Shown in pieces: positions 7,532-59,144 of a DNA stretch of 64,000 nucleotides. Both the position numbers and the translations under genes were made by a program. Source of the stretch: Candidatus Nanoarchaeia archaeon (GTDB lineage: Archaea; Nanobdellota; Nanobdellia; Woesearchaeales; GW2011-AR9). The stretch spans positions 11,763-75,762 of the forward strand of contig DATDTM010000018.1 in assembly GCA_035290865.1 (NCBI GenBank), given 5' to 3'. Position 1 is the stretch's first letter, and the number at the start of each line of letters is the position of its first letter. Below the pieces are notes generated by a model. The model had not been told where the DNA came from. It saw nothing but the letters and a program-made list of their open reading frames with translations, and did not search any database.

Positions 7532-8293
7532 TTATTTTAATTGATAAGTAATCTCCGCAGCTTTTTCTTCTCCAGAGAAACGTAATCTCAAAAGATACTT
7601 AATAAATTTATGGATGATCTTTAGTTTAGAAAGATGTCCGAAATCCCAACTAGATTCACCAAATTTCCTAGGGTGAAATTCTACGGGAATAGAAATGATT
7701 CTCAGCTTTTCTTTTTTTGCTTTGTAAAGGACATAAAAGTCAAAGTTGAAGTCTAACGGCGGAAAGTTTAATTTTTCCAATAATTCCCGTTGAAATACTT
7801 TTGGCTGGGCATTGATCTCATGGAAATTTTTAAAGAATAAGCTGCTGGATAATAATTGCAGGCCGGTAGTCAGTATTTGGGGAATAATCTTTCTTTTTGT
7901 TCTTCTGCCTTTAATAAGATACAGGCTTGGATTTTCTTTTGCGGAGATTATCTGATAGGCGCGAATAACATCTAAAGGATCGCACTGCATATCTGCATGA
8001 GTATAGGCAAGAATCTCTCCCTGTGCCTGCTGTAAACCAAAGTAAATTCCATTACCATAACCAATATTCTTGGGTACAAGAACAGTCCTGGCAAAAGAAT
8101 ATTCCGGCTTTTTTAGTTCTAACTCAATTATTTTCTGAGAGCTGTCCGTAGAGCCGTTATTGATCAGGATTAATTCAGCATCACGATTAGGGATAACTTC
8201 TGCGAATCGCTTCAGGATGAGGGGGATATTTCTTCTCTCATTATAGCAAGGAACCACAATAGAAAGCCTGGGCAAAGGTTTTGGATTATGCAT
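7532..8293 (-). CDS. family 2 glycosyltransferase (DPM1-like)
   Basis: LSIVVPCYNERRNI...LILINNGSTDSS, the typical GT-A N-terminus with a DxD region. Confidence 0.8.
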   Translation of the reverse strand: MHNPKPLPRLSIVVPCYNERRNIPLILKRFAEVIPNRDAELILINNGSTDSSQKIIELELKKPEYSFARTVLVPKNIGYGNGIYFGLQQAQGEILAYTHADMQCDPLDVIRAYQIISAKENPSLYLIKGRRTKRKIIPQILTTGLQLLSSSLFFKNFHEINAQPKVFQRELLEKLNFPPLDFNFDFYVLYKAKKEKLRIISIPVEFHPRKFGESSWDFGHLSKLKIIHKFIKYLLRLRFSGEEKAAEITYQLK

Positions 8294-17586: not shown

Positions 17587-18897
17587 TTAATTCCAATTCT
17601 TTAACAGATGGGAGAGGATAAATTCAGAAGATCTTGATTGAGTTATACCTTTCTCTTCAGTCTTCAGTTTTAAAGAATATTTAAACAGTTCAAAAATCTC
17701 CATCTGCCTCTTCAGTTCAGGGATAGACTCTTCCGGCCGGCGCTGATGCAGCATTTCGGGTTCATTATAAAGATAAATAGAGATAGTGGGTTTAGGAAAT
17801 AAACCTAACAAGACCCGTTTAAACCAGAAGGGAACGTGTTTCATCAAGACAATATCAGAACAATACCTATCGGTTATGACTGTTTCTCCTTTGAAGCGTC
17901 GAGGAAGGATGCGGAAATAATAACGTAGAAGCAAGTCTAGAGTAAAGATAGGGGCAACGCAGGTATAAATTAATCTTCTTTTCCAATTGGAGGTTTTAGT
18001 TAAGGTGGAATCACCCTTTTGAATGTCTTTCTTTTTTTCCGAATGTTTATATTTTCTACCGAGAAAGGTTATAGGTAAGAAATGGTCTCTTCCTCTTCCG
18101 GTATAGATCAAAACGGTTTTTCTCTGGGTGGATTGAAGACATTCGTTGATCCTCTGTACTAAAGTAGATTTACCAGAGCCGTCCGGGCCAACCACGCTGA
18201 TCAATGGCGCTAATCTGAGAGGATTCTGGTACTGCCAGAACCAGCGCCAGGAGAGTGCAGCGAAAGTAAAATAGTTTTGCGGTTTTTTAAGAATAAAGTA
18301 AGCTGCAAGCGGATAAGTTTTGATTTGGTTGAAATTATTCTCTTTTACAGAAAGAAGCAAGTGTTGGGCTATTTTTGGGTTAAAAATATTAGAAAGCTTT
18401 TCAAAAACATATTTCTGATTGATTTTAGGATACAATGAGAGCAAAATTTGTTGATATTTAGGTTTAAAGAATCTTTTTCCTAGCACAGAATGAGTCAGAA
18501 GCATCACCAAAGTATCATTATCAGAAGGCGCATAAAAGAAATCTGTTTTGATCCGATTCTGAAGAATTTCCTCATCTAGATAAGAGATATCGTTCCAATG
18601 CACTCCTCCCACTTGAAGATCAAAACTTACTTTGTGGAAATTGTTTTGGATATTAATTAACTTGAAATAAGCTTTATGCTGTAATGAAAATTGAGGTTTA
18701 CGTTTCTGAAAACCGAACTGGGTAAGAATTCGATCTACTTTAGCTAAGTCTTTCTTGGCGATAACTGTATCCAAACTTTCGATATCTTTTGGCGTTCCTG
18801 CACCTAATAAGAATTCATAATTGCGTAGAACACAATATTGCACCTGTTCTCGGTTAAACTCTTCAAATACCTGCTTAAGGAAAGTTATGCGCTCCAT
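17587..18897 (-). CDS. two-domain protein: unknown N-terminal domain plus C-terminal P-loop NTPase/kinase-like domain
   Basis: Walker A VVGPDGSGKSTL near residue 238. No TM segments. Function unknown. Confidence 0.5.
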   Translation of the reverse strand: MERITFLKQVFEEFNREQVQYCVLRNYEFLLGAGTPKDIESLDTVIAKKDLAKVDRILTQFGFQKRKPQFSLQHKAYFKLINIQNNFHKVSFDLQVGGVHWNDISYLDEEILQNRIKTDFFYAPSDNDTLVMLLTHSVLGKRFFKPKYQQILLSLYPKINQKYVFEKLSNIFNPKIAQHLLLSVKENNFNQIKTYPLAAYFILKKPQNYFTFAALSWRWFWQYQNPLRLAPLISVVGPDGSGKSTLVQRINECLQSTQRKTVLIYTGRGRDHFLPITFLGRKYKHSEKKKDIQKGDSTLTKTSNWKRRLIYTCVAPIFTLDLLLRYYFRILPRRFKGETVITDRYCSDIVLMKHVPFWFKRVLLGLFPKPTISIYLYNEPEMLHQRRPEESIPELKRQMEIFELFKYSLKLKTEEKGITQSRSSEFILSHLLKNWN

Positions 18898-25253: not shown

Positions 25254-25712
25254 CTAGAGCAGATTTTTTATTCTGGCAATAAACTCTTTGGCTAACTGAA
25301 TCGTTTGCTTTACTTCTCTCTCTTTAGGCTCGACTGCTTCCAATCCATAAAAGATTTCGTGCCTTTCTAACCGCAACACATTCAATTCGTTAAGAAACTT
25401 TAGTTCAATCTTATCGGCATATTTCTCTTTAAGATAAATATAAAGAGCATAGTGGCTTCTCTCTTTGTACCCGTCTCTGAATAAAAGTGCCCGGGAAGTA
25501 TGGAACATCGCGGAGTAAGCGTTGACTAAAGCCATATCCATTACTTTTAAAGAAAGAAGCTGTTCTGCTTTCTCTAACTTTTCTGCAGCCACCTCTAACG
25601 AGCGAGAAGCTTTTTCAGAGCTTGGCTGGTCTTTCTTTAGCAGTCCCTGACCTAAACATTCTCTAATATCCATCACAACACCACCGGCTTCTCTCCATAA
25701 AGAGGAATACAA
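25254..25712 (-). CDS. HEPN-domain protein (toxin of a HEPN/MNT pair)
   Basis: R-x4-H motif RLERHEIFYG. 40-nt overlap with the upstream MNT gene. Confidence 0.6.
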   Translation of the reverse strand: MYSSLWREAGGVVMDIRECLGQGLLKKDQPSSEKASRSLEVAAEKLEKAEQLLSLKVMDMALVNAYSAMFHTSRALLFRDGYKERSHYALYIYLKEKYADKIELKFLNELNVLRLERHEIFYGLEAVEPKEREVKQTIQLAKEFIARIKNLL

Positions 25713-26227
25713 TTAAAAATTACTTCTTTATAAAAAGTGGGATCCTTTTCTGCTTTTTCTTTCCAGTCATGATAAGTATACTCTAAGTAAGTTACTTCCC
25801 GGGAAAGCTTTTTCTCTGATTTAAATGAAAGATTGTTTATCTTTTTTCTGGTAATAATCAAAAGGTCAATATCACTTTGCTGATCATCAAGCCCTTTAGC
25901 TACTGAACCATATAAAGTAATGCTGATCAGACTTTCAGAAGAAAATTTTTCCAGCATCTCCTGAATTAACCCAGAAGAGTTTAATTCCGCTAAAGAAAAT
26001 AAAATTTTCGCCTGCTTAACTAAAGGAGAACTGCCTTCCACTTTTAGAAGATGGGTTTTTCCCACTACTTTTCTCTCCACAAACCAGTTTTTTTCCAGAT
26101 AATCTAAACTTGCTTTAGCTGTACTCGGCCCAACCCTAGCTTTTTTAGCGATTTCCCGCAGGCTTAAATCTTTGTTTTCCCGAATAATGGCCTTAATTAC
26201 TTTAAGAAGAGCGTATTTATAAATCAT
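25673..26227 (-). CDS. minimal nucleotidyltransferase (MNT) with N-terminal winged-helix HTH; antitoxin partner of HEPN
   Basis: wHTH (LSLREIAKKARVGPSTAKASLDYLEK). NTase motif GSVAKGLDDQQSDIDLLII (GSx9-11DxD). Confidence 0.7.
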   Translation of the reverse strand: MIYKYALLKVIKAIIRENKDLSLREIAKKARVGPSTAKASLDYLEKNWFVERKVVGKTHLLKVEGSSPLVKQAKILFSLAELNSSGLIQEMLEKFSSESLISITLYGSVAKGLDDQQSDIDLLIITRKKINNLSFKSEKKLSREVTYLEYTYHDWKEKAEKDPTFYKEVIFNCIPLYGEKPVVL

Positions 26228-30622: not shown

Positions 30623-32929
30623 CTATCTTAACTCCTGAACCTCTTTAATCTTTTCCACAATAAATTCAATCTGCTCTTTAGTCAAGTGGCTGGAAGAGGG
30701 CAGATAAAAGCCTTTTCTTTCTAATTCATCTGAACCCGGATATTTTCCGGCGCAGTCAGGATAATTTGGTTTAGGAGAATTAAGGTACATCGGCTGCTTA
30801 TGCATGCCAATGAAGAAAGTCCTGGTTTCCACTCCCCGCTGTTCTAATCTTTCTCTCAACTGGGGCATGGTCTTACCAAAATCATCTTGGATTAAAACAC
30901 CATACATCCAATAAACGTTTTTAGCCCATTCAGCTTCCGGAGGAGTGGTTATTCCTTTTACACCGGCTAAAAGCTGATTGTACAACTGAGCATTATTCCT
31001 GCGAGCTTTCACTAATTCATCAATCCGCTCTAATTGGGCCAGGCCTATGGCCGCCTGCAGATTGGTTAGGCGATAATTGTAGCCTACTTTCGGATGGATA
31101 AATCTGGGCAGGCCAAAATAATGATTTCTTAATTTTTTCATTTCTTCGGCCCATTTATCGTTATTGGTTACGACCATCCCGCCTTCTCCACAATTATGAA
31201 CTAATATTCCGTGGGCAAAGTAATTATGATTATCAACAGTTTCAATATTATGTACTTTCCCGGAATAATTCTTTTTAATTATTTGGGATACTTTAACAAT
31301 CTTTACTTTTGGATTGTAGATAAAAGTTTTAATACGTTCAGATAAAATCTCTTTATTTTTTAGCTCATTCTCCCAGAGAATAAGTGAATCATAACCGCAA
31401 TTATTGTATCTTCTTCTGCGAAGATCATATTCTTCTGGTTTATGCCAGTAAGAGCCAAGTAAATCAATTACTTTGCGTTTTCCTTTCAGGTGAACGAAGT
31501 CAGGAATCAAGCGATCAATCCTTACTTTTAGCCGACAATCGCCATTATAACCAAATTCTCCAGGAAAATACTGCTCCAAGAAGTGCTGAAGGTGCTGTTC
31601 TGGTCTATTTGGTTTTAAGTTCATCCCTTGAAGGTAATGTTCCCAATAAGAATCTTTCTCCATAGCACGAAGAACTCCTTTGCTTACCTTCTCCCGATAA
31701 GAGAAATCTTGCCCTAAAACTAAAGCGGAAAGACGCTTCTTTTCTCTAATCGCTGGATCTGCACCTATTTCTTTCATCTTTTGGCTGAAAGCACTGCGAT
31801 CCTCTGCAGAAAGGGCAGACCATCTCTCTTTTTGAGACTGGCTAAATTTCTTTCTCGTTTCCTTAGAAGGTTTTCTTCCTCTATTTGCTAGACTGATCTT
31901 AGCGGCTACCTGAGACCAATCGATTTTAGCATAAGTTGAATCTTCTTCCGCATGCCTTTGAGAAATAATCAAAGCATGTTCTTTTCTTTTTCTCTCTGCG
32001 ACTTCTGGCCCCATAATCTCTGTATAATTCTTTCCGGTGTACATCTCTTTATAGGCTAGACCACGATAGATATATTGGATTACTTCATCCCCTAGACTTA
32101 ATTGGTCTGCACGAACCCAGCCTTTACTTAAGACATAAACTGGATGATTGGGAGTAGTCTGAAAATGATTATGATTAGAGAAAGATATTTCTAACAAATT
32201 TCCATTATAATCCCTCTTAAAAGTTTTAGTCACTTTCTTATATTCTTTCTGGGCGGTCTTAAGATTATAGGTCAGTACTGAGTCCCCTACTTTAAGCTCA
32301 GATATTTTTTTCATCCTGCTTAATCCTTTGCCGCTTTTTGGAGGCTCGATCAGAATTTTGGTCTCAGGAGGAAAACAGGTCACAATTTTATTGGCATAGA
32401 AACTAAAAGTAGCAATATCGCTTAAGCTACCTGTTTTTCTACCTTTGTATTCTGCGCCGTGCGCTTCAGCTGCATCTTCAATCACATAAAGATTATGCTT
32501 ATCCGCAATTCTTTTGACTTTATCCATATCTACCGGATGGCCATAAGTATGCACGACCATGATCGCTTTAGTTCGGGGAGTGATCTTCTCTTCGATCTTA
32601 TCGATATCAATATTCCAAGTATCCAATTCAGAATCTACTAAGACTGGTTTAGCTCCGGCATAAATCACTCCATTACAAGAAGCAGCCATGGTAAAAGTAG
32701 GAATGATTATTTCATCTCCCGGGCCAATACCCAAAGCTTCTATGGCCAGATGGATAGCTACTGTGCCATTGCAGCAGCTCACCCCATGTTTAACAGTACA
32801 ATATTCTGCAAATTTCTCTTCGAATTTCTGCAAGTAAGATCCGGCAGAAGAAATCCAGCCGGTCTTGATCGTATCAGTAACATACTTCAATTCATTGCCT
32901 TGTAAAGTTGGTTCACAGACGGGTATCAT
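30623..32929 (-). CDS. DegT/DnrJ/EryC1/ArnB-family PLP-dependent sugar aminotransferase, interrupted by an intein
   Basis: N-extein 184 aa (…DAAEAHGAEYKG…FSFYANKIVT), then Cys1; C-extein CGEGGMVVTNN…. The K of SFYANK is the PLP lysine position. Exteins together are ~373 aa, normal for DegT. Confidence 0.85.
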   Translation of the reverse strand: MIPVCEPTLQGNELKYVTDTIKTGWISSAGSYLQKFEEKFAEYCTVKHGVSCCNGTVAIHLAIEALGIGPGDEIIIPTFTMAASCNGVIYAGAKPVLVDSELDTWNIDIDKIEEKITPRTKAIMVVHTYGHPVDMDKVKRIADKHNLYVIEDAAEAHGAEYKGRKTGSLSDIATFSFYANKIVTCFPPETKILIEPPKSGKGLSRMKKISELKVGDSVLTYNLKTAQKEYKKVTKTFKRDYNGNLLEISFSNHNHFQTTPNHPVYVLSKGWVRADQLSLGDEVIQYIYRGLAYKEMYTGKNYTEIMGPEVAERKRKEHALIISQRHAEEDSTYAKIDWSQVAAKISLANRGRKPSKETRKKFSQSQKERWSALSAEDRSAFSQKMKEIGADPAIREKKRLSALVLGQDFSYREKVSKGVLRAMEKDSYWEHYLQGMNLKPNRPEQHLQHFLEQYFPGEFGYNGDCRLKVRIDRLIPDFVHLKGKRKVIDLLGSYWHKPEEYDLRRRRYNNCGYDSLILWENELKNKEILSERIKTFIYNPKVKIVKVSQIIKKNYSGKVHNIETVDNHNYFAHGILVHNCGEGGMVVTNNDKWAEEMKKLRNHYFGLPRFIHPKVGYNYRLTNLQAAIGLAQLERIDELVKARRNNAQLYNQLLAGVKGITTPPEAEWAKNVYWMYGVLIQDDFGKTMPQLRERLEQRGVETRTFFIGMHKQPMYLNSPKPNYPDCAGKYPGSDELERKGFYLPSSSHLTKEQIEFIVEKIKEVQELR
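31193..32377 (-). mobile_element. intein (395 aa) with a putative nested endonuclease domain
   Basis: Starts CFPPETKIL (block A Cys1), block B TPNHP, ends ...AHGILVHN followed by +1 Cys (31190..31192). Internal segment ...IPDFVHLKGKRKVIDLLGSYWH resembles Vsr/DUF559-type PD-(D/E)XK endonucleases rather than LAGLIDADG. Confidence 0.75.
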
Positions 32930-39761: not shown

Positions 39762-40235
39762 ATGAAACATCCAAATAAAGAAATAATGCAGGAACTCATA
39801 AATTACACTAAGAAATTTACAAAGTATGGGGATGCAGTGGGCGCACTGCTGGTAAAAAGAAATAAGATAGTTGCAAAAGCTGCAGCAACTGTTGAAAAAG
39901 ACCAAGATCCAACCTCTCATGCCGAACTTAAAGTGATAAGTAAGATGTGTAGAAAAAATAAGAATTATCACTTAAAGGGATATTATCTTTACTCAACTCT
40001 TGAACCCTGTCCAATGTGTGCTAGTGGTATTGTCTGGGCAAGAATTAAAGGGGTAGTCTATGGGTTGGAAGGTCATGATATTTGGGGCAGATTAAATATT
40101 CCAGCACGAAAAATATTTAAAACTAGTCCTGAAAGAATAGAAGTTTATCCTAAATTTATGGAGAAAGAATGTCTTGAGCTTTCCCGAGAAAGTAAAGATA
40201 AAGAGATGGGTGAGTTTTTTAAATCTAACAAATAA
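39762..40235 (+). CDS. CDA-fold zinc deaminase (TadA / guanine / nucleoside deaminase-like)
   Basis: HAELKVISK (HAE) and LEPCPMCASGIVWARI (PCxxC) zinc-binding motifs. Confidence 0.75.
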   Translation: MKHPNKEIMQELINYTKKFTKYGDAVGALLVKRNKIVAKAAATVEKDQDPTSHAELKVISKMCRKNKNYHLKGYYLYSTLEPCPMCASGIVWARIKGVVYGLEGHDIWGRLNIPARKIFKTSPERIEVYPKFMEKECLELSRESKDKEMGEFFKSNK

Positions 40236-53115: not shown

Positions 53116-53270
53116 AAAAAATCCCCATCGCAGCATACGCGAATCTGCAGATTCCCTAGTTGCTTATCAGCAACAGCTGCGGGGTATTTAATTAGTTGGG
53201 ATTTTTTAATCTTAACTGGGTAATTTAATATCATAGCAAGCTATGGGGTATGTACCCAGTTAAGAAATCA
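53116..53270 (+). repeat. structured repeat, copy 2 (subtype B); direct repeat upstream of the 5-formyl-THF cyclo-ligase gene
   Basis: Shared 5' module plus 3' arm. aaaaaatcccca... pairs with ...gttgggatttttt; cttaactgggta pairs with tacccagttaag; nested catagc/gctatg. Confidence 0.8.
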
Positions 53271-53317
53271 TAGTATCATAACCTTTTAAAAGTATTTAAC
53301 TTAAAAAGAATAGATTA

Positions 53318-53944
53318 ATGAGAAAATTAAGAGAAGAATTACTGAAAGTACGCGGTTCTTTAAGCCTAGAAGAAGTTAAAATTAAGAGTAAAGAGATTAT
53401 TAAAAATGTACTGCGATTCAAACCGTTTACAAATTCAGCAAAAACTCTTTATTATCATCCCAGAGGAAAAGAAGCAGATTTAATGGAATTAATGAATTTA
53501 TCGTTAAAAGAAAATAAACCCATCTTCCTTCCGAAAACATATTCCGCGGATACCTCAATGAAGATTCATCAGATTAAAGATTTTAATTCTGAGCTGGAGC
53601 TAGGAGCATATGGAATTAAAGAGCCTAAACCAATCTATCCCGAATTTCCAAGACAGAAATTAAATTTAATATTTATACCGGGAGTAGCTTTTGATCTTGC
53701 AGGAAACAGATTAGGAATGGGAAGAGGTTATTATGACCGATTTTTAAAAGATATTTCAGCAATAAAAGCGGGTATTGCCTACGAATTTCAGATAGTAGAT
53801 AGATTAGATGCGCAGAGACATGATATTCCAATGGATTTTATAATTACTGAAAAGAGAATCATTGAAATAAAAAATCCCAATCGCAGCATACGTGAATCTG
53901 CTGATTCCCTAGTTGCTTATCAGCAACAGCTGCGGGGTATTTAA
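53318..53944 (+). CDS. 5-formyltetrahydrofolate cyclo-ligase (MTHFS), with C-terminal 24 aa encoded by repeat copy 3
   Basis: GMGRGYYDRFL signature. ORF end ...KNPNRSIRESADSLVAYQQQLRGI* is a direct translation of the repeat 5' module. Confidence 0.75.
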   Translation: MRKLREELLKVRGSLSLEEVKIKSKEIIKNVLRFKPFTNSAKTLYYHPRGKEADLMELMNLSLKENKPIFLPKTYSADTSMKIHQIKDFNSELELGAYGIKEPKPIYPEFPRQKLNLIFIPGVAFDLAGNRLGMGRGYYDRFLKDISAIKAGIAYEFQIVDRLDAQRHDIPMDFIITEKRIIEIKNPNRSIRESADSLVAYQQQLRGI

Positions 53945-54023
53945 TTAGTTGGGATTTTTTAATCTTAACTGGGTAATTTAATATCATAGCAAGCTATGGG
54001 GTATGTACCCAGTTAAGAAATCA
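53869..54023 (+). repeat. structured repeat, copy 3 (subtype B); near-identical to copy 2 (few substitutions), overlapping the 3' end of the MTHFS ORF
   Basis: 155 nt, same stems as copy 2. Confidence 0.8.
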
Positions 54024-54091
54024 ATAGAAGCCAGTAAAGAGACCTGTTAAAAAAAAGCAGCAAAAAATAATTTTTAATTCATTTAAAAAAA

Positions 54092-54946
54092 ATGGCACAA
54101 TTACTTAACGGAAAGGAAGTTGCAGAAAAAATCCTAGCTGAACTAAAAATAAAAGCAGCTTCTTTCCCTGCGAGACCAACTTTAGGGATTATTTCCGTGG
54201 GTGAGGATCCCGCCTCTCAAGTGTATATCAAGAAGAAAATCAAAGCTGCAGAAGAAATAGGAGTTAAGGCCAAACATTACCAATTAAGAGAAAATACTGA
54301 AGAAAGAGAGTTATTAAAATTAATTGAAGAACTGAATCTTGACCCAGAGATGGATGGATTTATCGTCCAACTGCCGCTTCCGGAACAAATCCGCGAAGAG
54401 AGAATAATTGAGAGCGTTTCCCCGGAAAAAGATCTGGACGGTTTTCATCCATTTAACCAAGGGAAGATGTTTCAAGGGATAATCAATTCTGAAAGCCTAC
54501 TTCCAGCCACACCTTTGGGAATAATGAAATTATTAGAACATTACCAAATAGAATTAGAAGGAAAAAAAGCAGTAATGGTAGGAAGAAGCAATATCGTGGG
54601 AAAGCCGCTGGCTGCTCTTCTCTTGAACAAAAATGCCACGGTAACCATAGCCCATAGCAAAACTAAGAACTTAGCTGAACATACTCAAGCTGCAGATATA
54701 ATAATTGCTGCGGTAGGAAAACCAAATTTAATCACTGTAGAGATGATCAAACCAGGAGCAATAGTAATTGATGTAGGAATGAATCGGGTAAATGGAAAGC
54801 TGGTTGGAGATGTAGATTTTGAGAAAGTAAAAGAAAAAGCTGCTTATATTACCCCGGTTCCTGGAGGGGTTGGCCCAATGACGGTGGCCATGTTAATGTA
54901 TAATTTAATCTCTCGAAAAGATAAAGATTTAAAATTAAATGATTAA
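54092..54946 (+). CDS. folD: bifunctional 5,10-methylene-THF dehydrogenase / 5,10-methenyl-THF cyclohydrolase
   Basis: GKEVAEKI...PTLGIISVGEDPASQVYIKKKIKAAEEIGV. VGRSNIVGKPLAALL. PVPGGVGPMTVAML. Confidence 0.9.
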   Translation: MAQLLNGKEVAEKILAELKIKAASFPARPTLGIISVGEDPASQVYIKKKIKAAEEIGVKAKHYQLRENTEERELLKLIEELNLDPEMDGFIVQLPLPEQIREERIIESVSPEKDLDGFHPFNQGKMFQGIINSESLLPATPLGIMKLLEHYQIELEGKKAVMVGRSNIVGKPLAALLLNKNATVTIAHSKTKNLAEHTQAADIIIAAVGKPNLITVEMIKPGAIVIDVGMNRVNGKLVGDVDFEKVKEKAAYITPVPGGVGPMTVAMLMYNLISRKDKDLKLND

Positions 54947-55000
54947 AGTTAATAAGAAGTCAGATTAATTCAACAACAACAAAAAATAAACTTAACTAAA

Positions 55001-55879
55001 ATGAAAGTAATAATTTCCATCCCTGCCTATAACGAAGAGAAAACTCTTGCTCTGGTCTTATCTGAGATTCATCAAGTGATGAAAAGTGCAGGCTATGCTT
55101 ATGAAATTCTAGTTCTAAACGATGGTTCAACTGATAGAACTGTAGAAGTAGCCAAGAGTTTAGGAGTAATAGTAGTTTCCAATAAGATCAATCTGGGATT
55201 AGCGGAAACCTTCAAAAGAGAGATGAAAGAATGCTTAAAGTTAAAAGCAGACATTATTGTGCACACTGATGCAGACGGTCAATACCATCCCCAGCATATC
55301 CCACAATTAATCGGAAAAGTAAAGGAAGGATATGATCTGGTTCTAGGAAGCAGATTTCAGGGAAAAGTCAAACATATGCCTCTTTTGAAGAAAATGGGAA
55401 ACTTAGCCTTCTCTAAAGTTTTAAGTTCGCTGACTAAAATCAAGATTACTGATTCAACTACCGGATTCAGGGCCTTCACTCCAGAAATAGCTAGAGAGAT
55501 TAATTATATCAATACGTTTACCTATACTCAAGAGCAAATCATCAAAGCTGCCAAGCAAGGGTTTAAAATCACAGAGATTCCAATCATTTCAAGAAAGACC
55601 AGGGAGAGCAGGCTGTTTAAGAACCCATTTCAATATGCAATCAAAGCCTGGATCAATATTTTTCGAATCTACCGAGATTATCAGCCTTTAAAATTCTTTG
55701 GCAGGATTGGATTGTTTTTCCTGTCCATTGGTGTAGGTATTGGAGTTTGGCTGGCCTATCGCTACTTTACTTTAGGCTATGTAGGAAAAACACCCTCTAC
55801 CCAGCTAAGCGTACTTTTGATTTTGATGGGAATCCAGATTGTTTTATTTGGATTCCTGGCGGATATGGTTCAGAAATAG
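55001..55879 (+). CDS. family 2 glycosyltransferase with two C-terminal TM helices (GtrB/ArnC/AglD-like polyprenyl-phosphate glycosyltransferase)
   Basis: ISIPAYNEEKTL...VLNDGSTDRT...DADGQYHP, plus the C-terminal hydrophobic pair. Confidence 0.8.
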   Translation: MKVIISIPAYNEEKTLALVLSEIHQVMKSAGYAYEILVLNDGSTDRTVEVAKSLGVIVVSNKINLGLAETFKREMKECLKLKADIIVHTDADGQYHPQHIPQLIGKVKEGYDLVLGSRFQGKVKHMPLLKKMGNLAFSKVLSSLTKIKITDSTTGFRAFTPEIAREINYINTFTYTQEQIIKAAKQGFKITEIPIISRKTRESRLFKNPFQYAIKAWINIFRIYRDYQPLKFFGRIGLFFLSIGVGIGVWLAYRYFTLGYVGKTPSTQLSVLLILMGIQIVLFGFLADMVQK

Positions 55880-55981
55880 GTGAATATAATAGTTAAGATC
55901 ACAATTTAAAATGTTTTATTCCAGAGCTGGTTTAAGGTTAAATAATCTTTATATACCCTTTCTTCTCAAAAATACCCTAAA

Positions 55982-58300
55982 ATGAGCACAGATGTGAAGA
56001 TTATCGTTACCTTAGGCCCGGCGACCGGTAAAGAAGAGGACCTGCACAGAATTAAAGACAAGGGGGTTAATTTTGTTCGGGTAAATATGTCTCATTCTTC
56101 TCTGGAAGACCTAAAATATTTCATTGGATTAGCCAAGAAAGTAGGAATTCCTTTTGTGATTGATACAGAAGGTTCACAGATCAGGACCGGAGAATTAAGC
56201 ACCAATAGTATTTCTTTAGAAGAAAATCAGGAAGTCAAGATTTATGATCAAGAAATAATCGGAAATACTGAAAAAATTTCATTTAAACCTGGGCACATAG
56301 TCCAGCAGCTGGAAAAAGGGGATTTAATCTATGTGGATTTCGATACTTTAACTTTGTTGGTTTCGGATACTTCTACTCTTAATCAAGGTTATATTACTGC
56401 CAAGGCCATCACCAGCGGATCTTTAGGTAGAAATAAGGGGGTAGTAATTGATTCCGGGTGCGGTAAAAGATTTGATCTTCCCACCTTATCTAAGAAAGAT
56501 TATGAATCAATCAAAATTGGGCTTGAAGAAGGGATCGGATATATCGCTGCCTCGTTCATGCGCTCAGGCCAGGCAGTAGATGAAGTGCGCAGAGCCACCC
56601 AGAATACCATGAAAATTATCTCTAAAATTGAATGTATGGATGCTTTAGAAAATATTGATGAGATCATCAAGAAATCTGATTACTTGCTTATTGATCGGGG
56701 AGATTTAAGCAAAGAGATTCCCATTGAAAAAATTGCTTTCACCCAAAAAATAATAATCAACAAAGCTAAACGAAAAAACAAAGAGGTGTTTGTAGCTACT
56801 AACCTTCTAGAGACCATGATGGAAAAAAGAAAGCCCACCAGAGCAGAGGTTCATGATATTATCAGCACTATCGTGGATGGGGCTAGGGGATTAGCTTTAG
56901 CAGGAGAGACCGCGATCGGAAAACACCCTTTAGAATGTATCAACATGCTCAACAAATTAATCAAACATGCTCAGCTAGCGATCAATATCGACCAATTTAA
57001 AGATAAAGAAGATAAGTTTGTGGATAATCTGGAACAAAGCAATTATCTATTAGATCGAAGTATTTCTTCCTCGCTCATTCCCCCCCATGGAGGGAAATTA
57101 GTTGAGCGAGTATTAAACCCGCTAATAGATTTAGAATATCTTAAAACCCTAAAAAAAGTGGTCATCGACGCTACTAAATATATGGATGTAGAACAAATCG
57201 CTCTAGGCGGTTATAGTCCGCTGGAAGGGTTTATGGGAAAAGAAGATTTTGAAAGCGTTTTAGACACGATGAAATTAGCTAATGGAATTATCTGGCCCCT
57301 ACCTATCATTTTGGATGTTCAAAAAGAAACTGCAGATAAATTGTCCATCGGAGAGACTATCGTTTTAGTCTCTAATCAAGGCCAGCAGGGGGATGCAGGA
57401 CAAGGAGAAGAAGTTGCCCTATTGCATCTGGAAGAGAAATTTACTTATGATAAAACAGAAATGTGTGAAAAGATGTATGGAACTACTGATGAAAAGCATC
57501 CAGGAGTAAAGATGGTTCAGACCTTCAATCCTATATTATTAGGAGGGAAAATAGATTTGATCAAACGCAGGGAAACTGAACATAAAGAATATGAATTAAC
57601 CCCCAAACAAACCAGAAGATTATTTGAAGAACGAGGCTGGGCCAAAGTCGTCGGATTTCATACCCGAAATGTAATCCATCGAAGCCATGAATTTATTCAG
57701 ATGAAAGCTCTGGAAGAAGGAAGATGTGATGGCTTATTAGTCCATCCAGTGATCGGCAAAAAGAAAAGTGGAGACTTCCAAGCCAAGTTTATCATCAAGA
57801 GCTATGAGACTATGGTTAAAAACTTTTATCCCAAGAACCGGGTCATTTTCAGTACTTTAGCTACTTATTCCCGCTATGCCGGACCGAGAGAAGCTTTATT
57901 TACGGCTTTATGCAGGAAGAATCATGGCTGCAGTCATTTTATTGTAGGCAGAGACCATACGGGAGTGGGAGACTATTATCATCCTAAAGCCTCCCATAAT
58001 ATCTTTGACCGTTTTCCGGAAATAGGAATCAAAGCGGTAAAATTTGATAAAGTATTTTATTCCAAAAGATTGCAGAAACATGTCCACGAAAAAGAAGCTG
58101 GGAAAGAGGCTGAAAGAGTAAAGGCAATCGAAGGAAACGAGGAGAACGGCGAGAATGATCGGATGGAGATTAGCGGAACTCAAGCCAGAAAAATGTTTGA
58201 GCAAGGGCTGACTCCTCCGGAATGGTTCATGCGTCCGGAGATATCCCGGGTTATTGCTGAAGCAATTCAACGAGGAGAAGAAGTGTTTGTGAGGGAATGA
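55982..58300 (+). CDS. fusion protein: pyruvate-kinase-like catalytic domain (N, ~330 aa) + complete ATP sulfurylase / sulfate adenylyltransferase (C, ~430 aa)
   Basis: PK blocks: IIVTLGPATG, RVNMSHSS, VIDTEGSQIRTG, ISKIEC, LIDRGDLSKEIP, ATNLLETMMEKRKPTRAEVHD, VDGARGLALAGETAIGKHP. ATPS blocks: LIPPHGG (PUA-like), GFHTRNVIHRSHE (QTRNxxHRAHE), GRDHTGVGDYY (GRDHAG), MAGPREALF. Confidence 0.85.
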   Translation: MSTDVKIIVTLGPATGKEEDLHRIKDKGVNFVRVNMSHSSLEDLKYFIGLAKKVGIPFVIDTEGSQIRTGELSTNSISLEENQEVKIYDQEIIGNTEKISFKPGHIVQQLEKGDLIYVDFDTLTLLVSDTSTLNQGYITAKAITSGSLGRNKGVVIDSGCGKRFDLPTLSKKDYESIKIGLEEGIGYIAASFMRSGQAVDEVRRATQNTMKIISKIECMDALENIDEIIKKSDYLLIDRGDLSKEIPIEKIAFTQKIIINKAKRKNKEVFVATNLLETMMEKRKPTRAEVHDIISTIVDGARGLALAGETAIGKHPLECINMLNKLIKHAQLAINIDQFKDKEDKFVDNLEQSNYLLDRSISSSLIPPHGGKLVERVLNPLIDLEYLKTLKKVVIDATKYMDVEQIALGGYSPLEGFMGKEDFESVLDTMKLANGIIWPLPIILDVQKETADKLSIGETIVLVSNQGQQGDAGQGEEVALLHLEEKFTYDKTEMCEKMYGTTDEKHPGVKMVQTFNPILLGGKIDLIKRRETEHKEYELTPKQTRRLFEERGWAKVVGFHTRNVIHRSHEFIQMKALEEGRCDGLLVHPVIGKKKSGDFQAKFIIKSYETMVKNFYPKNRVIFSTLATYSRYAGPREALFTALCRKNHGCSHFIVGRDHTGVGDYYHPKASHNIFDRFPEIGIKAVKFDKVFYSKRLQKHVHEKEAGKEAERVKAIEGNEENGENDRMEISGTQARKMFEQGLTPPEWFMRPEISRVIAEAIQRGEEVFVRE

Positions 58301-58301
58301 A

Positions 58302-59144
58302 ATGTCCACTGAACCAGAATTCTTCTCGGAAACTAAATTAGCGATAAAAGCTGCCCTTAACGCAGGAAAAGAAGTGTTAAAGATTTATAATAGTGAATTT
58401 ACAACCACTTACAAAAAAGATACTACTCCAATAACAGAAGCCGATCTAAAGAGCAATGAAACCATTATCAAAATTCTGGAATTATCCGGATATTATCTGC
58501 TTTCCGAAGAGAATATTAAGGATAATTACATTGAAAACCTTCCTCAGAAAACCTCCACAAAATTCTGGGTAGTAGATCCGCTTGACGGAACTGCTGATTT
58601 CATAAATAAAACCGGGGAATTTGCAGTAATGATCGCTTTGGTTGAAAACAGAAAACCAATTTTGGGAGTAATCTATCAGCCGGTCGGAGATCGATTATTT
58701 GTAGCTCAAAAGAATAGCGGAGCTTTCTTTAAAGATAAAGAGAATTGGATTAAACTAAAAGTGAATACTCTGGATAAACTTAAAGAGAGTAAAGCAGTAG
58801 TAAGTAAAAACCATTTAGAAGAAATTGAGAAAGATTTCTTGGATATTGTCGGTATCTCAAGTTTCAGTCAAAAAGGGAGCTGCGGGCTGAAAGTAGCGGA
58901 AATCTGCCAGCAAAAAGCGGAATTATATTTTACCCGAACCAATAAAATCAAAATCTGGGATACGGCTGCGGCATATTGCTTGATAATTGAAGCTGGTGGA
59001 AAAATGACAGATATGCTTGGTGAAGAGTTAAATTATGATTTAGCGGAAATTTATCATCAAAAGGGGGTGTTGGTGAGCAATGGAATAATTCATGATGAAG
59101 TTAGTGAACAATGGTCAATATTTCTAGAGGAGAACACTAATTAA
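58302..59144 (+). CDS. cysQ: inositol-monophosphatase-family phosphatase, CysQ-like 3'(2'),5'-bisphosphate nucleotidase
   Basis: WVVDPLDGTADFI, WDTAAA. ATG 1 nt after the fusion-gene TGA (translational coupling). Confidence 0.7.
   Translation: MSTEPEFFSETKLAIKAALNAGKEVLKIYNSEFTTTYKKDTTPITEADLKSNETIIKILELSGYYLLSEENIKDNYIENLPQKTSTKFWVVDPLDGTADFINKTGEFAVMIALVENRKPILGVIYQPVGDRLFVAQKNSGAFFKDKENWIKLKVNTLDKLKESKAVVSKNHLEEIEKDFLDIVGISSFSQKGSCGLKVAEICQQKAELYFTRTNKIKIWDTAAAYCLIIEAGGKMTDMLGEELNYDLAEIYHQKGVLVSNGIIHDEVSEQWSIFLEENTN

What the first reader, a model, noticed from the sequence alone, without database searches (positions are those of the whole stretch)
55982..59144. Pyruvate-kinase-domain :: ATP-sulfurylase fusion, translationally coupled to a CysQ-like PAP phosphatase
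A single 772-aa ORF joins a complete pyruvate-kinase catalytic core to a full-length sulfate adenylyltransferase (PUA-like + catalytic domains). The PK core has every conserved block, including the catalytic K/E and the ETAKG region, but lacks the C-terminal allosteric domain. The ATP sulfurylase reaction is strongly unfavourable. A covalently attached PEP-driven ATP-regenerating domain would be an unusual way to pull sulfate activation, in contrast to the known ATPS-APS kinase or ATPS-pyrophosphatase couplings. A CysQ-like PAP phosphatase follows with a 1-nt gap, implying PAPS consumption, that is sulfotransferase activity on the glycans made by this island. No APS kinase or canonical sulfotransferase is obvious in the window, which is itself notable. 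I am not aware of this domain architecture being described.
Basis: partly seen in the sequence, partly recalled or inferred. Interest (0 to 1): 0.8.

Follow-up and report, generated by a model that had tools for sequence, protein, structure and literature searches.

The report
Pyruvate kinase fused to ATP sulfurylase
This is a real, widespread but uncharacterised enzyme fusion of archaea and bacteria that joins an ATP-regenerating pyruvate kinase core to the sulfate-activating enzyme, most likely to keep production of the sulfate donor PAPS running for sugar sulfation.

Summary
ORF 55982..58300 (772 aa) contains a full pyruvate-kinase barrel without the C-terminal domain, followed by a complete Sat-type ATP sulfurylase. 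A CysQ-like gene starts 1 nt after its stop. It is not a chimera: the identical protein (NCBI HLD72460.1, Candidatus Nanoarchaeia) lies on 16 independently assembled contigs.

The architecture is common. There are 518 relatives in JGI metagenomes, and 126 of the 150 best 50%-identity representatives carry both halves, across DPANN, Patescibacteria, Chloroflexota, Gammaproteobacteria and Nitrospinota. Databases name it as only one of the two enzymes, and I found no paper describing it.

PK catalytic residues are invariant family-wide, with unusual signature substitutions. The ATPS half is intact here, but its two sulfate-contacting positions are changed (Gln→His, Ala→Thr). About 17 divergent representatives have a dead ATPS half.

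The constant genomic partner is APS kinase: fused in 15 of 78 loci and present in 41 of 78, including next to dead-ATPS members. Sulfotransferases and CysQ also recur.

PK cannot act on the ATPS products. It most likely recycles the ADP made by APS kinase, as PK/PEP does in in-vitro PAPS synthesis. The window lineage lacks any recognisable APS kinase or sulfotransferase within 68 kb.

Verdict: new variant of a known kind. Interest 0.6.

The parts
55948..55955 (+). TTTATATA, a possible archaeal TATA box 27-34 nt upstream of the fusion's ATG, in a 102-nt AT-rich intergenic spacer.
   Evidence: Read directly from the sequence. This is an inference only; no promoter test was made.
55982..58300 (+). 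PK-core::ATP sulfurylase fusion gene (772 aa), identical to NCBI HLD72460.1.
   Evidence: AlphaFold2 model with pLDDT 86.9 and pTM 0.84.
55994..56941 (+). Pyruvate kinase A (TIM barrel) plus B (lid) domains, aa 5-320. Two further helices run to about aa 352 (nt 57037), and a linker runs to about aa 365. There is no C domain. Catalytic and ligand residues are R33, N35, S37, D61, T62, R68, K152, K215, E217, D241, T273 and E309. Family signature residues are E63, Q66, D238 and N274.
   Evidence: Pfam. phmmer to E. coli PykF residues 4-340, E 1e-55. Residue conservation in 120 homologs and in 68 divergent representatives. Foldseek.
57077..57568 (+). PUA-like N-terminal domain of ATP sulfurylase, aa 366-529. 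It includes a lineage-specific low-confidence loop at aa 468-472.
   Evidence: Pfam PF14306, E 5e-47. pLDDT profile.
57587..58261 (+). ATP sulfurylase catalytic domain, aa 536-760. The motifs are F-H560-T-R-N, H566xxH569, G592xKKxGD598 and G656-R-D-H-T660-G.
   Evidence: Pfam PF01747, E 5e-77. phmmer to PDB 8a8d (E 9e-89) and 1v47. Foldseek TM 0.89-0.93 on the target. Motif conservation.
58302..59144 (+). CysQ-like 3'(2'),5'-bisphosphate nucleotidase (280 aa), starting 1 nt after the fusion's stop codon, with a GAGG motif upstream of its ATG.
   Evidence: Pfam Inositol_P, E 1e-46. TIGR01331 CysQ is the best NCBIfam hit at 178.7 bits, below its 228.8 cut-off. The best PDB hit is 3b8b 'CysQ' at 7e-30, against SuhB at 5e-21. 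Junction sequence. The same gene directly follows the fusion in 12 other non-redundant loci, with gaps of -4 to +11 nt in 9 of them.
17587..18897 (-). Candidate distant partner, not a proven part of the system. It is a 436-aa protein with NTP_transf_5 and P-loop kinase regions (Walker A GPDGSGKST). It is a homolog of the 'c9' gene that lies directly downstream of the fusion in 14 other loci.
   Evidence: Pfam hits are weak. The local c9 HMM gives E 9e-10 and the APSK HMM only E 0.005. hhalign of the c9 C-terminus against APSK gives 72% probability. It is the only Walker-A ORF in the window.

Best explanation
The gene encodes a bifunctional enzyme of a PAPS-supply module for sulfation of cell-surface glycans.

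The C-terminal half is an active Sat-type ATP sulfurylase (ATP + sulfate -> APS + PPi). It has a variant anion pocket, with His560 in place of Gln and Thr660 in place of Ala.

The N-terminal half is a catalytically competent pyruvate kinase core without its allosteric C domain (PEP + ADP -> pyruvate + ATP). PK cannot act on the ATPS products. Its substrate is the ADP released by the next enzyme, APS kinase (APS + ATP -> PAPS + ADP).

Tethering PK to the sulfate-activation complex would do three things:
- remove ADP, which traps APS kinase in a dead-end E-ADP-APS complex;
- re-supply ATP to both ATP-consuming steps;
- make the net reaction sulfate + ATP + PEP -> PAPS + PPi + pyruvate.

The ATPS-fold domain probably also serves as the docking and oligomerisation module that brings PK, ATPS and APS kinase together. 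The co-transcribed CysQ-like phosphatase removes PAP, the inhibitory by-product of sulfotransfer.

What is shown: the domain content, conservation of the catalytic residues, the family-wide linkage to APS kinase, sulfotransferase and CysQ genes, and the glycan-cluster context.

What is inferred: both activities, ADP recycling and channelling, complex formation, and the existence of an APS kinase and a sulfotransferase elsewhere in this Nanoarchaeia genome.
For: 1. Both halves are full-length and match curated models and solved enzymes.

2. PK ligand and catalytic positions are 100% conserved in 120 homologs (PykF R32, N34, S36, D66, T67, R73, K156, K220, E222, D246, T278, E314). They are also conserved in nearly all of 68 representatives as little as ~35% identical. 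This shows selection for catalysis.

3. ATPS catalytic motifs (T/R/N, HxxH, GxKKxGD, GRDH-G) are 120/120 conserved in the close family.

4. APS kinase linkage across 78 non-redundant loci:
- APSK is fused to the C-terminus in 15 loci and present in 41.
- Among the 34 loci with more than 5 kb on both sides, 20 have APSK, 16 have sulfotransferases, 12 have CysQ, and 28 have at least one of these.
- APSK-CysQ fusions also occur.

5. About 17 of 68 divergent representatives have lost all ATPS motifs but keep the PK motifs. They still sit next to an APS kinase (L103 with 4-nt spacing, L105 with 4-nt overlap, L102 two genes away) or an overlapping sulfotransferase gene (L106).

6. Conversely, the partner 'ATPS-APSK' proteins beside intact fusions have dead ATPS domains (L013, L055, L057, L058, and the N-terminal half of P0004). 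This is the pseudo-ATPS+APSK type known from T. denitrificans and E. histolytica, where the domain is thought to stabilise the oligomer (PMC13213808).

7. Fused and split forms of both halves exist.

8. In vitro, PAPS synthesis by PAPSS1 nearly fails without PK/PEP. ADP accumulates and APS kinase forms the dead-end E-APS-ADP complex (PMC9885120).

9. The window is a glycan island with GT2, GT4, two Wzx flippases, GDP-sugar dehydratases, DegT and PMT_2 genes.
Against: 1. In the window lineage (window, L008, L099) there is no APS kinase, APSK-like kinase or sulfotransferase within 56 kb upstream and 10 kb downstream. The proposed partner is therefore unseen here.

2. The two sulfate-contacting positions are changed to His and Thr in 120/120 and 119/120 homologs. 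These are the Gln of QxRN and the Ala after GRDH, in loops described as strictly conserved (PMC3779200). Sulfate specificity is therefore assumed, not shown.

3. The PK half has invariant non-canonical residues near the monovalent-cation and nucleotide site. It has E114/Q117 (rabbit numbering) instead of K114/E117 or Q114/K117, plus D at PykF A243 and N at Q279. An altered substrate or cation requirement is possible.

4. No activity, complex or channelling has been measured.

5. In 8 loci the fusion sits beside genes that, from my memory of the C. jejuni pathway, resemble the phosphoramidate-pathway genes Cj1416-1418. The associated 'APS kinase' homologs may in some cases phosphorylate another nucleotide.
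Confidence: 0.6

Rival explanations
1. The ATPS-like half activates an anion other than sulfate, for example a phosphoramidate-type or another tetrahedral oxyanion. The module would then feed a PAPS-like 3'-phosphonucleotide donor pathway rather than sulfation. PK would still recycle the ADP of the 3'-kinase.
For: Both sulfate-contacting positions carry invariant substitutions (Gln->His, Ala->Thr). Genes resembling Cj1416/Cj1417/Cj1418 (identified from my memory of the C. jejuni pathway) lie next to the fusion in 8 of 78 loci. These are a CTP_transf_like+PPDK_N+PEP-utilizers protein, a Peptidase_C26 protein and NTP transferases. L105 has two APSK homologs beside such genes.
Against: Bona fide Sulfotransfer_1 and Sulfotransfer_3 genes are among the commonest neighbours, in 29 of 78 loci. 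70 of 78 loci lack the phosphoramidate-type genes. Those clusters already encode their own nucleotidyltransferase. His can donate the same hydrogen bond as Gln, and the Ala contact is through the backbone. The curated ATPS models score above their cut-offs.
Confidence: 0.1
2. The PK half is simply the organism's housekeeping glycolytic pyruvate kinase, fused by accident to an assimilatory ATP sulfurylase. The fusion would have no functional coupling.
For: DPANN genomes are small. Metabolic surveys count Sat and PYK separately in such MAGs (PMC8091004). The PK catalytic machinery is intact.
Against: The fusion is conserved across phyla, including large-genome Chloroflexota (a 10.4-Mb contig) and Gammaproteobacteria, which I would expect to have ordinary PKs. 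It always lacks the regulatory C domain. It carries family-specific active-site signatures. It always sits in glycan or sulfation clusters, and no PAPS/APS reductase or sulfite reductase appeared in the Pfam-annotated neighbourhoods I inspected or among the recurrent neighbour clusters I annotated. PK is retained where the ATPS half is dead but APSK is adjacent.
Confidence: 0.07
3. In lineages without an APS kinase, such as the window, the PK half itself performs a PEP-dependent phosphorylation other than ADP->ATP. An example would be 3'-phosphorylation of APS, which would make the fusion a self-contained PEP-driven PAPS synthase.
For: No APSK lies within 68 kb, although a CysQ-like PAP phosphatase is co-transcribed. 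The PK half has invariant non-canonical residues at E114, Q117, D(A243) and N(Q279). From general knowledge, APS is isosteric with ADP.
Against: The window protein's PK active-site residues are the same as the family consensus, and that family includes triple fusions that already carry APSK. There is therefore no lineage-specific change. No PK family member is known to phosphorylate a ribose hydroxyl. APSK may simply be encoded elsewhere in the genome.
Confidence: 0.05
4. The PK half is a non-catalytic sensor or scaffold that binds PEP or ADP and regulates ATPS.
For: The allosteric C domain, which normally regulates PK, is missing. Pseudo-enzyme domains are common in this system.
Against: Every metal-, PEP- and nucleotide-binding residue and the catalytic Lys are invariant down to ~35% identity. 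The ATPS half, by contrast, does decay in some branches. This pattern is the opposite of what a pseudo-enzyme would show.
Confidence: 0.06
5. The downstream 'CysQ-like' gene is not a PAP phosphatase. It would instead be the inositol-phosphate phosphatase of the neighbouring inositol-phosphate genes.
For: In this lineage the cluster also contains a fused NTP_transferase+inositol-1-phosphate synthase and a CDP-alcohol phosphatidyltransferase-like gene. The protein is below the CysQ equivalog cut-off.
Against: CysQ models and the CysQ structure are by far the best hits. TIGR01331 scores 178.7 bits against 62.8 for IMPase, and PDB 3b8b gives 7e-30 against 5e-21 for SuhB. The same gene follows PK-ATPS(-APSK) in 12 loci of unrelated organisms (9 at gaps of -4 to +11 nt) and is fused to APS kinase in L001, L017 and L031.
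Confidence: 0.12
6. The junction is an assembly chimera.
For: None.
Against: The identical 772-aa protein is on 16 contigs from different samples and assemblers. There are 518 metagenomic relatives. 126 of 150 representatives at 50% identity contain both halves. The linker contains conserved family-specific positions.
Confidence: 0.01

Closest known systems
Bifunctional PAPS synthases (ATPS-APSK fusions: metazoan PAPSS1/2; Aquifex aeolicus SAT/APS kinase, PDB 2gks)
   Same: The ATP sulfurylase is covalently joined to a helper enzyme that makes sulfate activation proceed. 15 of 78 relatives of the window protein carry the same ATPS-APSK arrangement downstream of the PK.
   Different: The window protein has no APSK domain. 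Its extra domain is a pyruvate kinase core at the N-terminus, and I found this in no described PAPS synthase.
Other energy-coupled sulfate activation systems: CysD-CysN(C), where GTP hydrolysis drives APS synthesis, and eukaryotic ATPS-APSK-pyrophosphatase fusions (both from my own knowledge, not tested here)
   Same: The logic is the same: an exergonic reaction is attached to the very unfavourable ATPS step or its follow-up.
   Different: Those systems couple through GTP hydrolysis or PPi removal, acting on the ATPS reaction itself. Here the attached reaction is PEP-dependent ADP phosphorylation, which can only act through the APS kinase step and the adenylate pool.
Pseudo-ATPS + APS kinase proteins (Thiobacillus denitrificans, PDB 3cr8; Entamoeba histolytica APSK)
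   Same: An ATPS-fold domain is used as a non-catalytic assembly module (PMC13213808). Proteins of exactly this type are encoded next to the fusion in L013, L055, L057 and L058, and are fused to it in P0004. A mirror-image PK-pseudoATPS branch also exists.
   Different: In the window protein the ATPS domain keeps all its catalytic motifs.
Canonical pyruvate kinase (E. coli PykF, PDB 1pky; rabbit M1)
   Same: The A and B domains and all catalytic and ligand residues are present.
   Different: There is no C-terminal allosteric and tetramerisation domain. The residue combination at rabbit positions 113/114/117/120 is T/E/Q/T, not the K+-dependent T/K/E/T or the K+-independent L/Q/K/(L,I,V) (PMC8835810). 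Asp replaces PykF A243 and Asn replaces Q279.
Engineered PAPS-synthesis cascades with PK/PEP ATP regeneration (PMC9885120)
   Same: The same set of reactions is involved: ATPS, APS kinase and pyruvate kinase/PEP. PK removes ADP, relieves the dead-end APS kinase complex and is needed for PAPS to accumulate.
   Different: That is an artificial mixture of separate enzymes. Here nature appears to have built the combination into one polypeptide or operon.
Stand-alone Sat-type ATP sulfurylases (Methanothermococcus thermolithotrophicus, PDB 8a8d; Thermus thermophilus, PDB 1v47)
   Same: They are the closest solved relatives of the C-terminal half (E 9e-89 and 8e-79; Foldseek TM 0.89-0.93 on the target; about 40% identity).
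   Different: They have FQTRN and GRDHAG where the fusion family has FHTRN and GRDHTG. They have no PK domain.

Membership tests
Pyruvate kinase (EC 2.7.1.40) | TIM-barrel A domain with inserted B (lid) domain (Pfam PF00224, full length) | tested here: met
   PF00224 at aa 5-320, covering profile positions 4-328 of 328, E 5.5e-71. phmmer to PykF residues 4-340, E 1e-55. Foldseek hits to PKs.
Pyruvate kinase (EC 2.7.1.40) | Catalytic Lys, Mg2+ ligands (Glu, Asp), K+-site residues, PEP/nucleotide-binding Arg and Lys, and Thr on the enolate face | tested here: met
   R33, N35, S37, D61, T62, R68, K152, K215, E217, D241, T273 and E309 align to PykF R32, N34, S36, D66, T67, R73, K156, K220, E222, D246, T278 and E314. 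All are 118-120/120 conserved and are kept in divergent representatives.
Pyruvate kinase (EC 2.7.1.40) | C-terminal alpha/beta (allosteric/tetramerisation) domain, PF02887 | tested here: not met
   There is no PF02887 hit in the window protein or in any of the 120 homologs. The ATPS half follows the last PK helices.
Pyruvate kinase (EC 2.7.1.40) | Score above the NCBIfam equivalog cut-off (TIGR01064) | tested here: not met
   292.6 bits against a cut-off of 306.4, with the match ending at profile position 349 of 476.
Pyruvate kinase (EC 2.7.1.40) | One of the two described signatures at rabbit positions 113/114/117/120 (T/K/E/T, K+-dependent; L/Q/K/(L,I,V), K+-independent) | tested here: not met
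   The family has T/E/Q/T. E is found in 116/120 and Q in 120/120. The signatures are taken from PMC8835810 and PMC4374775.
Pyruvate kinase (EC 2.7.1.40) | PEP + ADP -> pyruvate + ATP activity | not testable with these tools
   This needs an enzyme assay.
Sat-type ATP sulfurylase (EC 2.7.7.4) | PUA-like domain plus ATP-sulfurylase catalytic domain, scoring above curated cut-offs | tested here: met
   PF14306 159.9 bits (cut-off 27) and PF01747 258.5 bits (cut-off 24.3). TIGR00339 356.7 against 322.95, and NF003166 434 against 387.
Sat-type ATP sulfurylase (EC 2.7.7.4) | Catalytic motifs: T-R-N of the RNP loop, HxxH, GxxKxxD mobile loop, G-R-D-H of the GRD loop | tested here: met
   T561, R562, N563, H566, H569, G592..K595..D598 and G656-R-D-H659 are all 120/120 conserved.
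Sat-type ATP sulfurylase (EC 2.7.7.4) | Sulfate-contacting Gln of QxRN, and Ala (backbone NH) following GRDH | tested here: not met
   His560 is found in 120/120 and Thr660 in 119/120. The role of the Gln and Ala is described in PMC3779200. The effect on specificity is unknown.
Sat-type ATP sulfurylase (EC 2.7.7.4) | ATP + sulfate -> APS + PPi activity | not testable with these tools
   This needs an enzyme assay.
Bifunctional PAPS synthase (ATPS + APS kinase) | APS kinase domain (PF01583) in the same polypeptide | tested here: not met
   It is absent from the window protein and from the whole window. It is present in 15 of 78 related fusions.
CysQ 3'(2'),5'-bisphosphate nucleotidase (the downstream gene) | Inositol_P fold with the DPxDGT and WDxAA metal motifs | tested here: met
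   PF00459 E 1e-46. VDPLDGT and WDTAAA are visible in the alignment to PDB 3b8b.
CysQ 3'(2'),5'-bisphosphate nucleotidase (the downstream gene) | Closer to CysQ than to the IMPase, SuhB, HisN or FBPase branches | tested here: met
   TIGR01331 scores 178.7 bits, against HisN 104, FBPase/IMPase 87 and IMPase 63. PDB CysQ 3b8b gives 7e-30, against SuhB at 5e-21.
CysQ 3'(2'),5'-bisphosphate nucleotidase (the downstream gene) | Score above the CysQ equivalog cut-off | tested here: not met
   178.7 bits against a cut-off of 228.8.
CysQ 3'(2'),5'-bisphosphate nucleotidase (the downstream gene) | PAP -> AMP + Pi activity | not testable with these tools
   This needs an enzyme assay.

The most novel reading that the evidence does not exclude
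The fusion may be more than an ATP-recycling add-on. Both halves carry invariant substitutions, and one reading not excluded is that these mark a new enzyme chemistry. The PK changes are E114, Q117, Asp at PykF A243 and Asn at Q279. The ATPS changes are His and Thr at the two sulfate contacts.

Two versions are possible:
- A self-contained PEP-driven donor synthase, in which the PK half phosphorylates something other than ADP. The window lineage has no APS kinase in 68 kb, which would fit this.
- An ATPS-like half that adenylylates a non-sulfate anion, feeding the phosphoramidate-type glycan modification genes found beside it in some genomes.
Probability: 0.12. Interest if true: 0.85.

Novelty: new variant of a known kind. 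Interest (0 to 1): 0.6.

Why it matters
1. It would add a third natural strategy for driving sulfate activation, besides PPi removal/APS kinase fusion and GTP hydrolysis by CysN. The third strategy is PEP-driven removal of ADP and re-supply of ATP at the enzyme complex. Biocatalysis groups add exactly this module to make PAPS in vitro (PMC9885120). A natural single-chain PK-ATPS-APSK of about 930 aa (for example P0049) could be directly useful for PAPS production.

2. It marks sulfated cell-surface glycans as a common trait of DPANN archaea, Patescibacteria and others. It also supplies a compact marker gene for finding the associated sulfotransferases, several of which are unannotated.

3. It has a practical consequence for annotation. 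Pipelines name the protein 'sulfate adenylyltransferase' or 'pyruvate kinase'. It may therefore be counted as evidence for sulfate assimilation or dissimilation, or for glycolytic substrate-level phosphorylation, in reduced genomes. PMC8091004 scores Sat and PYK in this way, although I did not check whether the genes in that study are fusions.

4. The family offers a natural experiment in pseudo-enzyme evolution. There are PK-ATPS, PK-pseudoATPS, pseudoATPS-APSK, and fused and split forms.

Tried and rejected
**Assembly chimera.** Rejected.

**APS kinase in the window.**
- tblastn with six APSK domains hit only the ATPS C-terminus.
- The local APSK HMM gave only E 0.005, on the c9-like ORF.
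- Pfam found none over all ORFs of at least 140 aa.

**Sulfotransferase in the window.**
- Pfam was negative.
- Four local HMMs built from neighbour sulfotransferase clusters were negative.
- A 5'-PSB-like motif scan was negative.

**Unknown neighbour ORFs as cryptic sulfotransferases or kinases.**
- c38 (304 aa) and the L010 254-aa ORF have no Pfam hit, and c38 shows no hhalign relation to sulfotransferases. The L010 ORF was not tested by hhalign.
- The c34 and c15 P-loop kinases are related to APSK at 95-97% probability, but only over the P-loop region. c9 is related at 72%.
- This is suggestive but not enough to call any of them an APS kinase.

**Searches with limited return.**
- The single-sequence scan of genome contigs returned only 7 loci, so the taxonomic spread is known from names only.
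- The AlphaFold coordinates are not exposed to scripts. I could not measure the distance between the active sites or inspect the domain interface.
- The tRNA scan found none, so it gave no taxonomic help.

**Literature.** Nine full-text searches found pyruvate kinase only as an assay reagent in ATPS/APSK papers.

**Other readings considered and rejected.**
- Reverse (dissimilatory) ATPS function: no AprAB or Dsr genes appeared in the Pfam-annotated neighbourhoods I inspected.
- A PPi-utilising role for PK: no chemical basis.

Full report
**1. The observation**

The window contains a 772-aa ORF at 55982..58300 (+), followed by a 280-aa ORF at 58302..59144 (+).

Pfam finds three domains in the first product:
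- a full-length pyruvate kinase barrel (PF00224) at aa 5-320, covering profile positions 4-328 of 328, E 5.5e-71;
- a PUA_2 domain at aa 366-529;
- an ATP-sulfurylase domain at aa 536-760.

The PK C-terminal domain is absent. NCBIfam places the C-terminal half above the curated cut-offs for sulfate adenylyltransferase (TIGR00339, NF003166). It places the N-terminal half just under the pyruvate kinase equivalog cut-off, because the match stops at profile position 349 of 476.

The second ORF belongs to the Inositol_P family, and its best hits are CysQ models and the CysQ structure 3b8b. The stop and start codons are separated by one base (TGA a ATG), with a GAGG motif upstream of the second ATG.

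The AlphaFold2 model built on 40 homologs is confident (pLDDT 86.9, pTM 0.84). Its best structural matches are the ATP sulfurylases 8a8d and 1v47, followed by pyruvate kinases.

**2. It is not an artefact and it is not rare**

The identical protein is NCBI HLD72460.1, 'sulfate adenylyltransferase [Candidatus Nanoarchaeia archaeon]'. It is encoded on 16 contigs from different samples with the same neighbours. L099 is base-for-base identical to window 53170..64000 and extends 4.3 kb further.

Evidence for how common the architecture is:
- A search of 5.8 billion proteins returned at least 120 clusters with PK+PUA_2+ATPS at 61-91% identity over the full length.
- A scan of JGI metagenomes gave 518 confirmed relatives.
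- A junction-only query (aa 281-440) against 1.84 billion 50%-identity representatives gave 218 hits at E<=1e-10. Of the best 150, 126 contain both halves.

Named sources include Nanoarchaeota and Woesearchaeota, Patescibacteria, Anaerolineae, Ardenticatenaceae, Chloroflexia, Methanosarcinales, Gammaproteobacteria and Nitrospinales MAGs.

The databases call the protein either 'sulfate adenylyltransferase' or 'pyruvate kinase'. Nine full-text literature searches found no description of the fusion.

**3. Anatomy of the two halves**

*PK half.* It aligns with E. coli PykF residues 4-340. All ligand and catalytic positions are conserved in 118-120 of 120 homologs. They are also kept in almost all of 68 representatives down to ~35% identity. 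The positions are PykF R32, N34, S36, D66, T67, R73, K156, K220, E222, D246, T278 and E314.

The family has its own signature: K68->E, P70->S, E71->Q, A243->D and Q279->N. In rabbit numbering this gives T113/E114/Q117/T120. That is neither the K+-dependent combination (T/K/E/T) nor the K+-independent one (L/Q/K/(L,I,V)) described in PMC8835810 and PMC4374775.

*ATPS half.* It is closest to the M. thermolithotrophicus and T. thermophilus enzymes. It keeps T-R-N, HxxH, GxKKxGD and GRDH in 120/120 homologs.

The two residues that hold the sulfate group of APS are replaced. The Gln of QxRN becomes His in 120/120 homologs, and the Ala after GRDH becomes Thr in 119/120. PMC3779200 describes these loops as strictly conserved.

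Both signatures persist in the most distant fusions fetched (L006 and L007, 43-46% identity). Unfused ATPS proteins with FHTRN/GRDHTG exist, and so do unfused, C-domain-less PK cores with DTEG.Q. This gives a fused/split pattern.

**4. Genomic company**

I called ORFs in 98 loci plus the window region and removed duplicates, which left 78 distinct fusions. I then clustered their neighbours. The results:

| Feature | Loci (of 78) |
|---|---|
| APS kinase fused to the C-terminus of the fusion | 15 |
| APS kinase fused or present in the locus | 41 |
| CysQ-like gene present | 22 |
| Pfam-confirmed sulfotransferase (four clusters) | 29 |

- CysQ is directly downstream of the fusion in 12 loci, with gaps of -4 to +11 nt in 9 of them. 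It is fused to APSK in L001, L017 and L031.
- Among the 34 loci with more than 5 kb on both sides, 28 have at least one of APSK, sulfotransferase or CysQ.
- The clusters are otherwise glycan loci: Wzx, Wzy, glycosyltransferases, GDP-sugar dehydratases, NeuB and methyltransferases.
- No APS/PAPS reductase or sulfite reductase appeared in the Pfam-annotated neighbourhoods or among the recurrent neighbour clusters I annotated. This argues against assimilation or respiration.

**5. Pseudo-enzyme partners**

Where a separate 'ATPS-APSK' gene lies beside the fusion, its ATPS motifs are destroyed (L013, L055, L057, L058), and the same holds for the N-terminal half of the 1341-aa protein P0004. In L073 and L076 they are essentially intact.

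This is the pseudo-ATPS+APS kinase type known from T. denitrificans and E. histolytica. There the dead domain is thought to stabilise the oligomer (PMC13213808).

The mirror image also exists. In 17 of 68 divergent representatives the fusion's own ATPS motifs are gone, and in 3 more they are partly lost. The PK motifs remain intact in these proteins.

I looked at four such genes:
- three sit beside an APS kinase homolog (L103 with 4-nt spacing, L105 with 4-nt overlap, L102 two genes away);
- the fourth overlaps a sulfotransferase gene (L106).

PK catalysis and the link to APS kinase are therefore the constants of the family. ATPS catalysis can be supplied in cis or, presumably, in trans.

**6. 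Mechanism**

ATP sulfurylase produces APS and PPi, and neither is a PK substrate.

APS kinase produces ADP. Experiments show that ADP traps APS kinase in a dead-end E-ADP-APS complex. They also show that PAPS synthesis in vitro essentially requires a PK/PEP module (PMC9885120).

The best-supported model is that the PK core is tethered to the sulfate-activation complex through the ATPS-fold domain. There it converts APS kinase's ADP back to ATP at the expense of PEP. The net reaction is sulfate + ATP + PEP -> PAPS + PPi + pyruvate. CysQ then clears PAP after sulfotransfer.

The sequence and context facts are shown. The activities, complex formation and channelling are inferred.

**7. What is peculiar to the window**

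The window lineage (window, L099, and the 91% ortholog L008) has the two-gene unit fusion+CysQ. It lies between a GT2 gene and a convergent Wzx gene, in a large glycan island.

It has no APS kinase, APSK-like kinase or sulfotransferase within about 56 kb upstream and 10 kb downstream. Of the five loci that have CysQ but no canonical APSK, three carry an APSK-related AAA_33 kinase (c34) and a sulfotransferase directly after the fusion. Only this lineage has neither.

The only P-loop protein in the window is ORF 17587..18897 (-). It is a homolog of the NTP_transf_5+kinase gene 'c9', which directly follows the fusion in 14 other loci. Its role is unknown.

The cluster also holds an NTP-transferase/inositol-1-phosphate synthase fusion and a CDP-alcohol transferase-like gene. 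A minority reading is therefore that the Inositol_P gene serves inositol-phosphate chemistry. The family-wide adjacency to PK-ATPS(-APSK) and the CysQ-specific similarity argue against this reading.

**8. Rivals and open points**

The His and Thr changes in the sulfate pocket are one open point. A second, based on my memory of the C. jejuni pathway, is that genes resembling Cj1416-1418 (phosphoramidate pathway) lie beside the fusion in 8 loci. Together they leave room for a non-sulfate anion or a PAPS-like donor in some lineages.

The non-canonical PK residues leave room for altered cation or acceptor use. A housekeeping-PK reading, a scaffold reading and a chimera are each contradicted by the conservation and context data.

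**9. Verdict**

- The thing itself is a widespread, database-visible but apparently undescribed variant of the multi-enzyme sulfate-activation theme, with testable and biotechnologically relevant consequences.

Noticed in passing
window 30623..32929 (-): The DegT/DnrJ/EryC1 sugar aminotransferase ORF (768 aa) is interrupted by an intein. Intein_splicing spans aa 206-579, with a DUF559-like endonuclease segment inside it.
   Followed up: no
window 17587..18897 (-): A 436-aa protein with an NTP_transf_5 region and a TMK-like P-loop (GPDGSGKST). It is a homolog of the 533-aa 'c9' gene that directly follows the PK-ATPS fusion in 14 unrelated loci. Its function is unknown. It is only weakly similar to APS kinase.
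   Followed up: partly
window 47667..48539 (+): An IS-type transposase (HTH_28 plus rve integrase core) is inserted among the PMT_2/glycan genes. It is absent at the corresponding place in the ortholog locus L008.
   Followed up: no
window 25254..26227 (-): An overlapping pair of HEPN-domain and nucleotidyltransferase (NTP_transf_2) ORFs, of the toxin-antitoxin type, lies inside the glycan island.
   Followed up: no
window 40001..42000: A local drop in GC to 0.287, against about 0.36 elsewhere. The region has strong positive GC skew and several small ORFs without Pfam hits.
   Followed up: no
window 8286..9734 (-) and 14807..16252 (-): Two B12-binding radical SAM enzymes, plus SPASM and other radical SAM ORFs, lie among the sugar-nucleotide genes. 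This suggests unusual C-methylation or other radical sugar chemistry.
   Followed up: no
L021, L022, L027, L032 and others (e.g. L022:11302-11595): A 97-aa PQ-loop/semiSWEET-like membrane protein is encoded between the fusion and APS kinase in 10 loci. It is fused to the N-terminus of APSK in L025 and L096.
   Followed up: partly
L017:17619-21184; L028, L033, L034, L037, L043, L066, L069; L105:876-3726: Genes that, from my memory of the C. jejuni pathway, resemble the O-methyl-phosphoramidate pathway genes Cj1418/Cj1416/Cj1417 lie beside the fusion in 8 loci. They are a CTP_transf_like+PPDK_N+PEP-utilizers protein, a Peptidase_C26 protein and NTP transferases. L105 has two APS-kinase homologs, one beside each gene set.
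   Followed up: partly
P0130, P0146, P0171, P0189, P0202 and others; loci L102-L106: A sub-branch of the family keeps an intact PK half but has lost all ATPS catalytic motifs (PK-pseudoATPS). These genes are still adjacent to APS kinase or sulfotransferase genes.
   Followed up: yes
L013:14093-15787, L055:2332-4035, L058:5907-7631, L057:4464-5456; P0004 residues 1-600: The 'ATPS-APSK' proteins encoded next to the fusion, or fused in front of it, have degenerate ATPS motifs. They are therefore pseudo-ATPS+APS kinase proteins of the T. denitrificans/E. histolytica type.
   Followed up: yes
P0013 (1019 aa): A variant of the fusion also has NTP_transferase/IspD-like Pfam hits, so a nucleotidyltransferase domain is joined to the same polypeptide. 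I did not determine its position in the chain.
   Followed up: no
L099:11478-13295 (extension of the window) and L008:18732-20549: A 605-aa fusion of an NTP-transferase with inositol-1-phosphate synthase lies next to a CDP-alcohol phosphatidyltransferase-like gene. This suggests a CDP-inositol-type head group or glycan substituent made by the same island.
   Followed up: no
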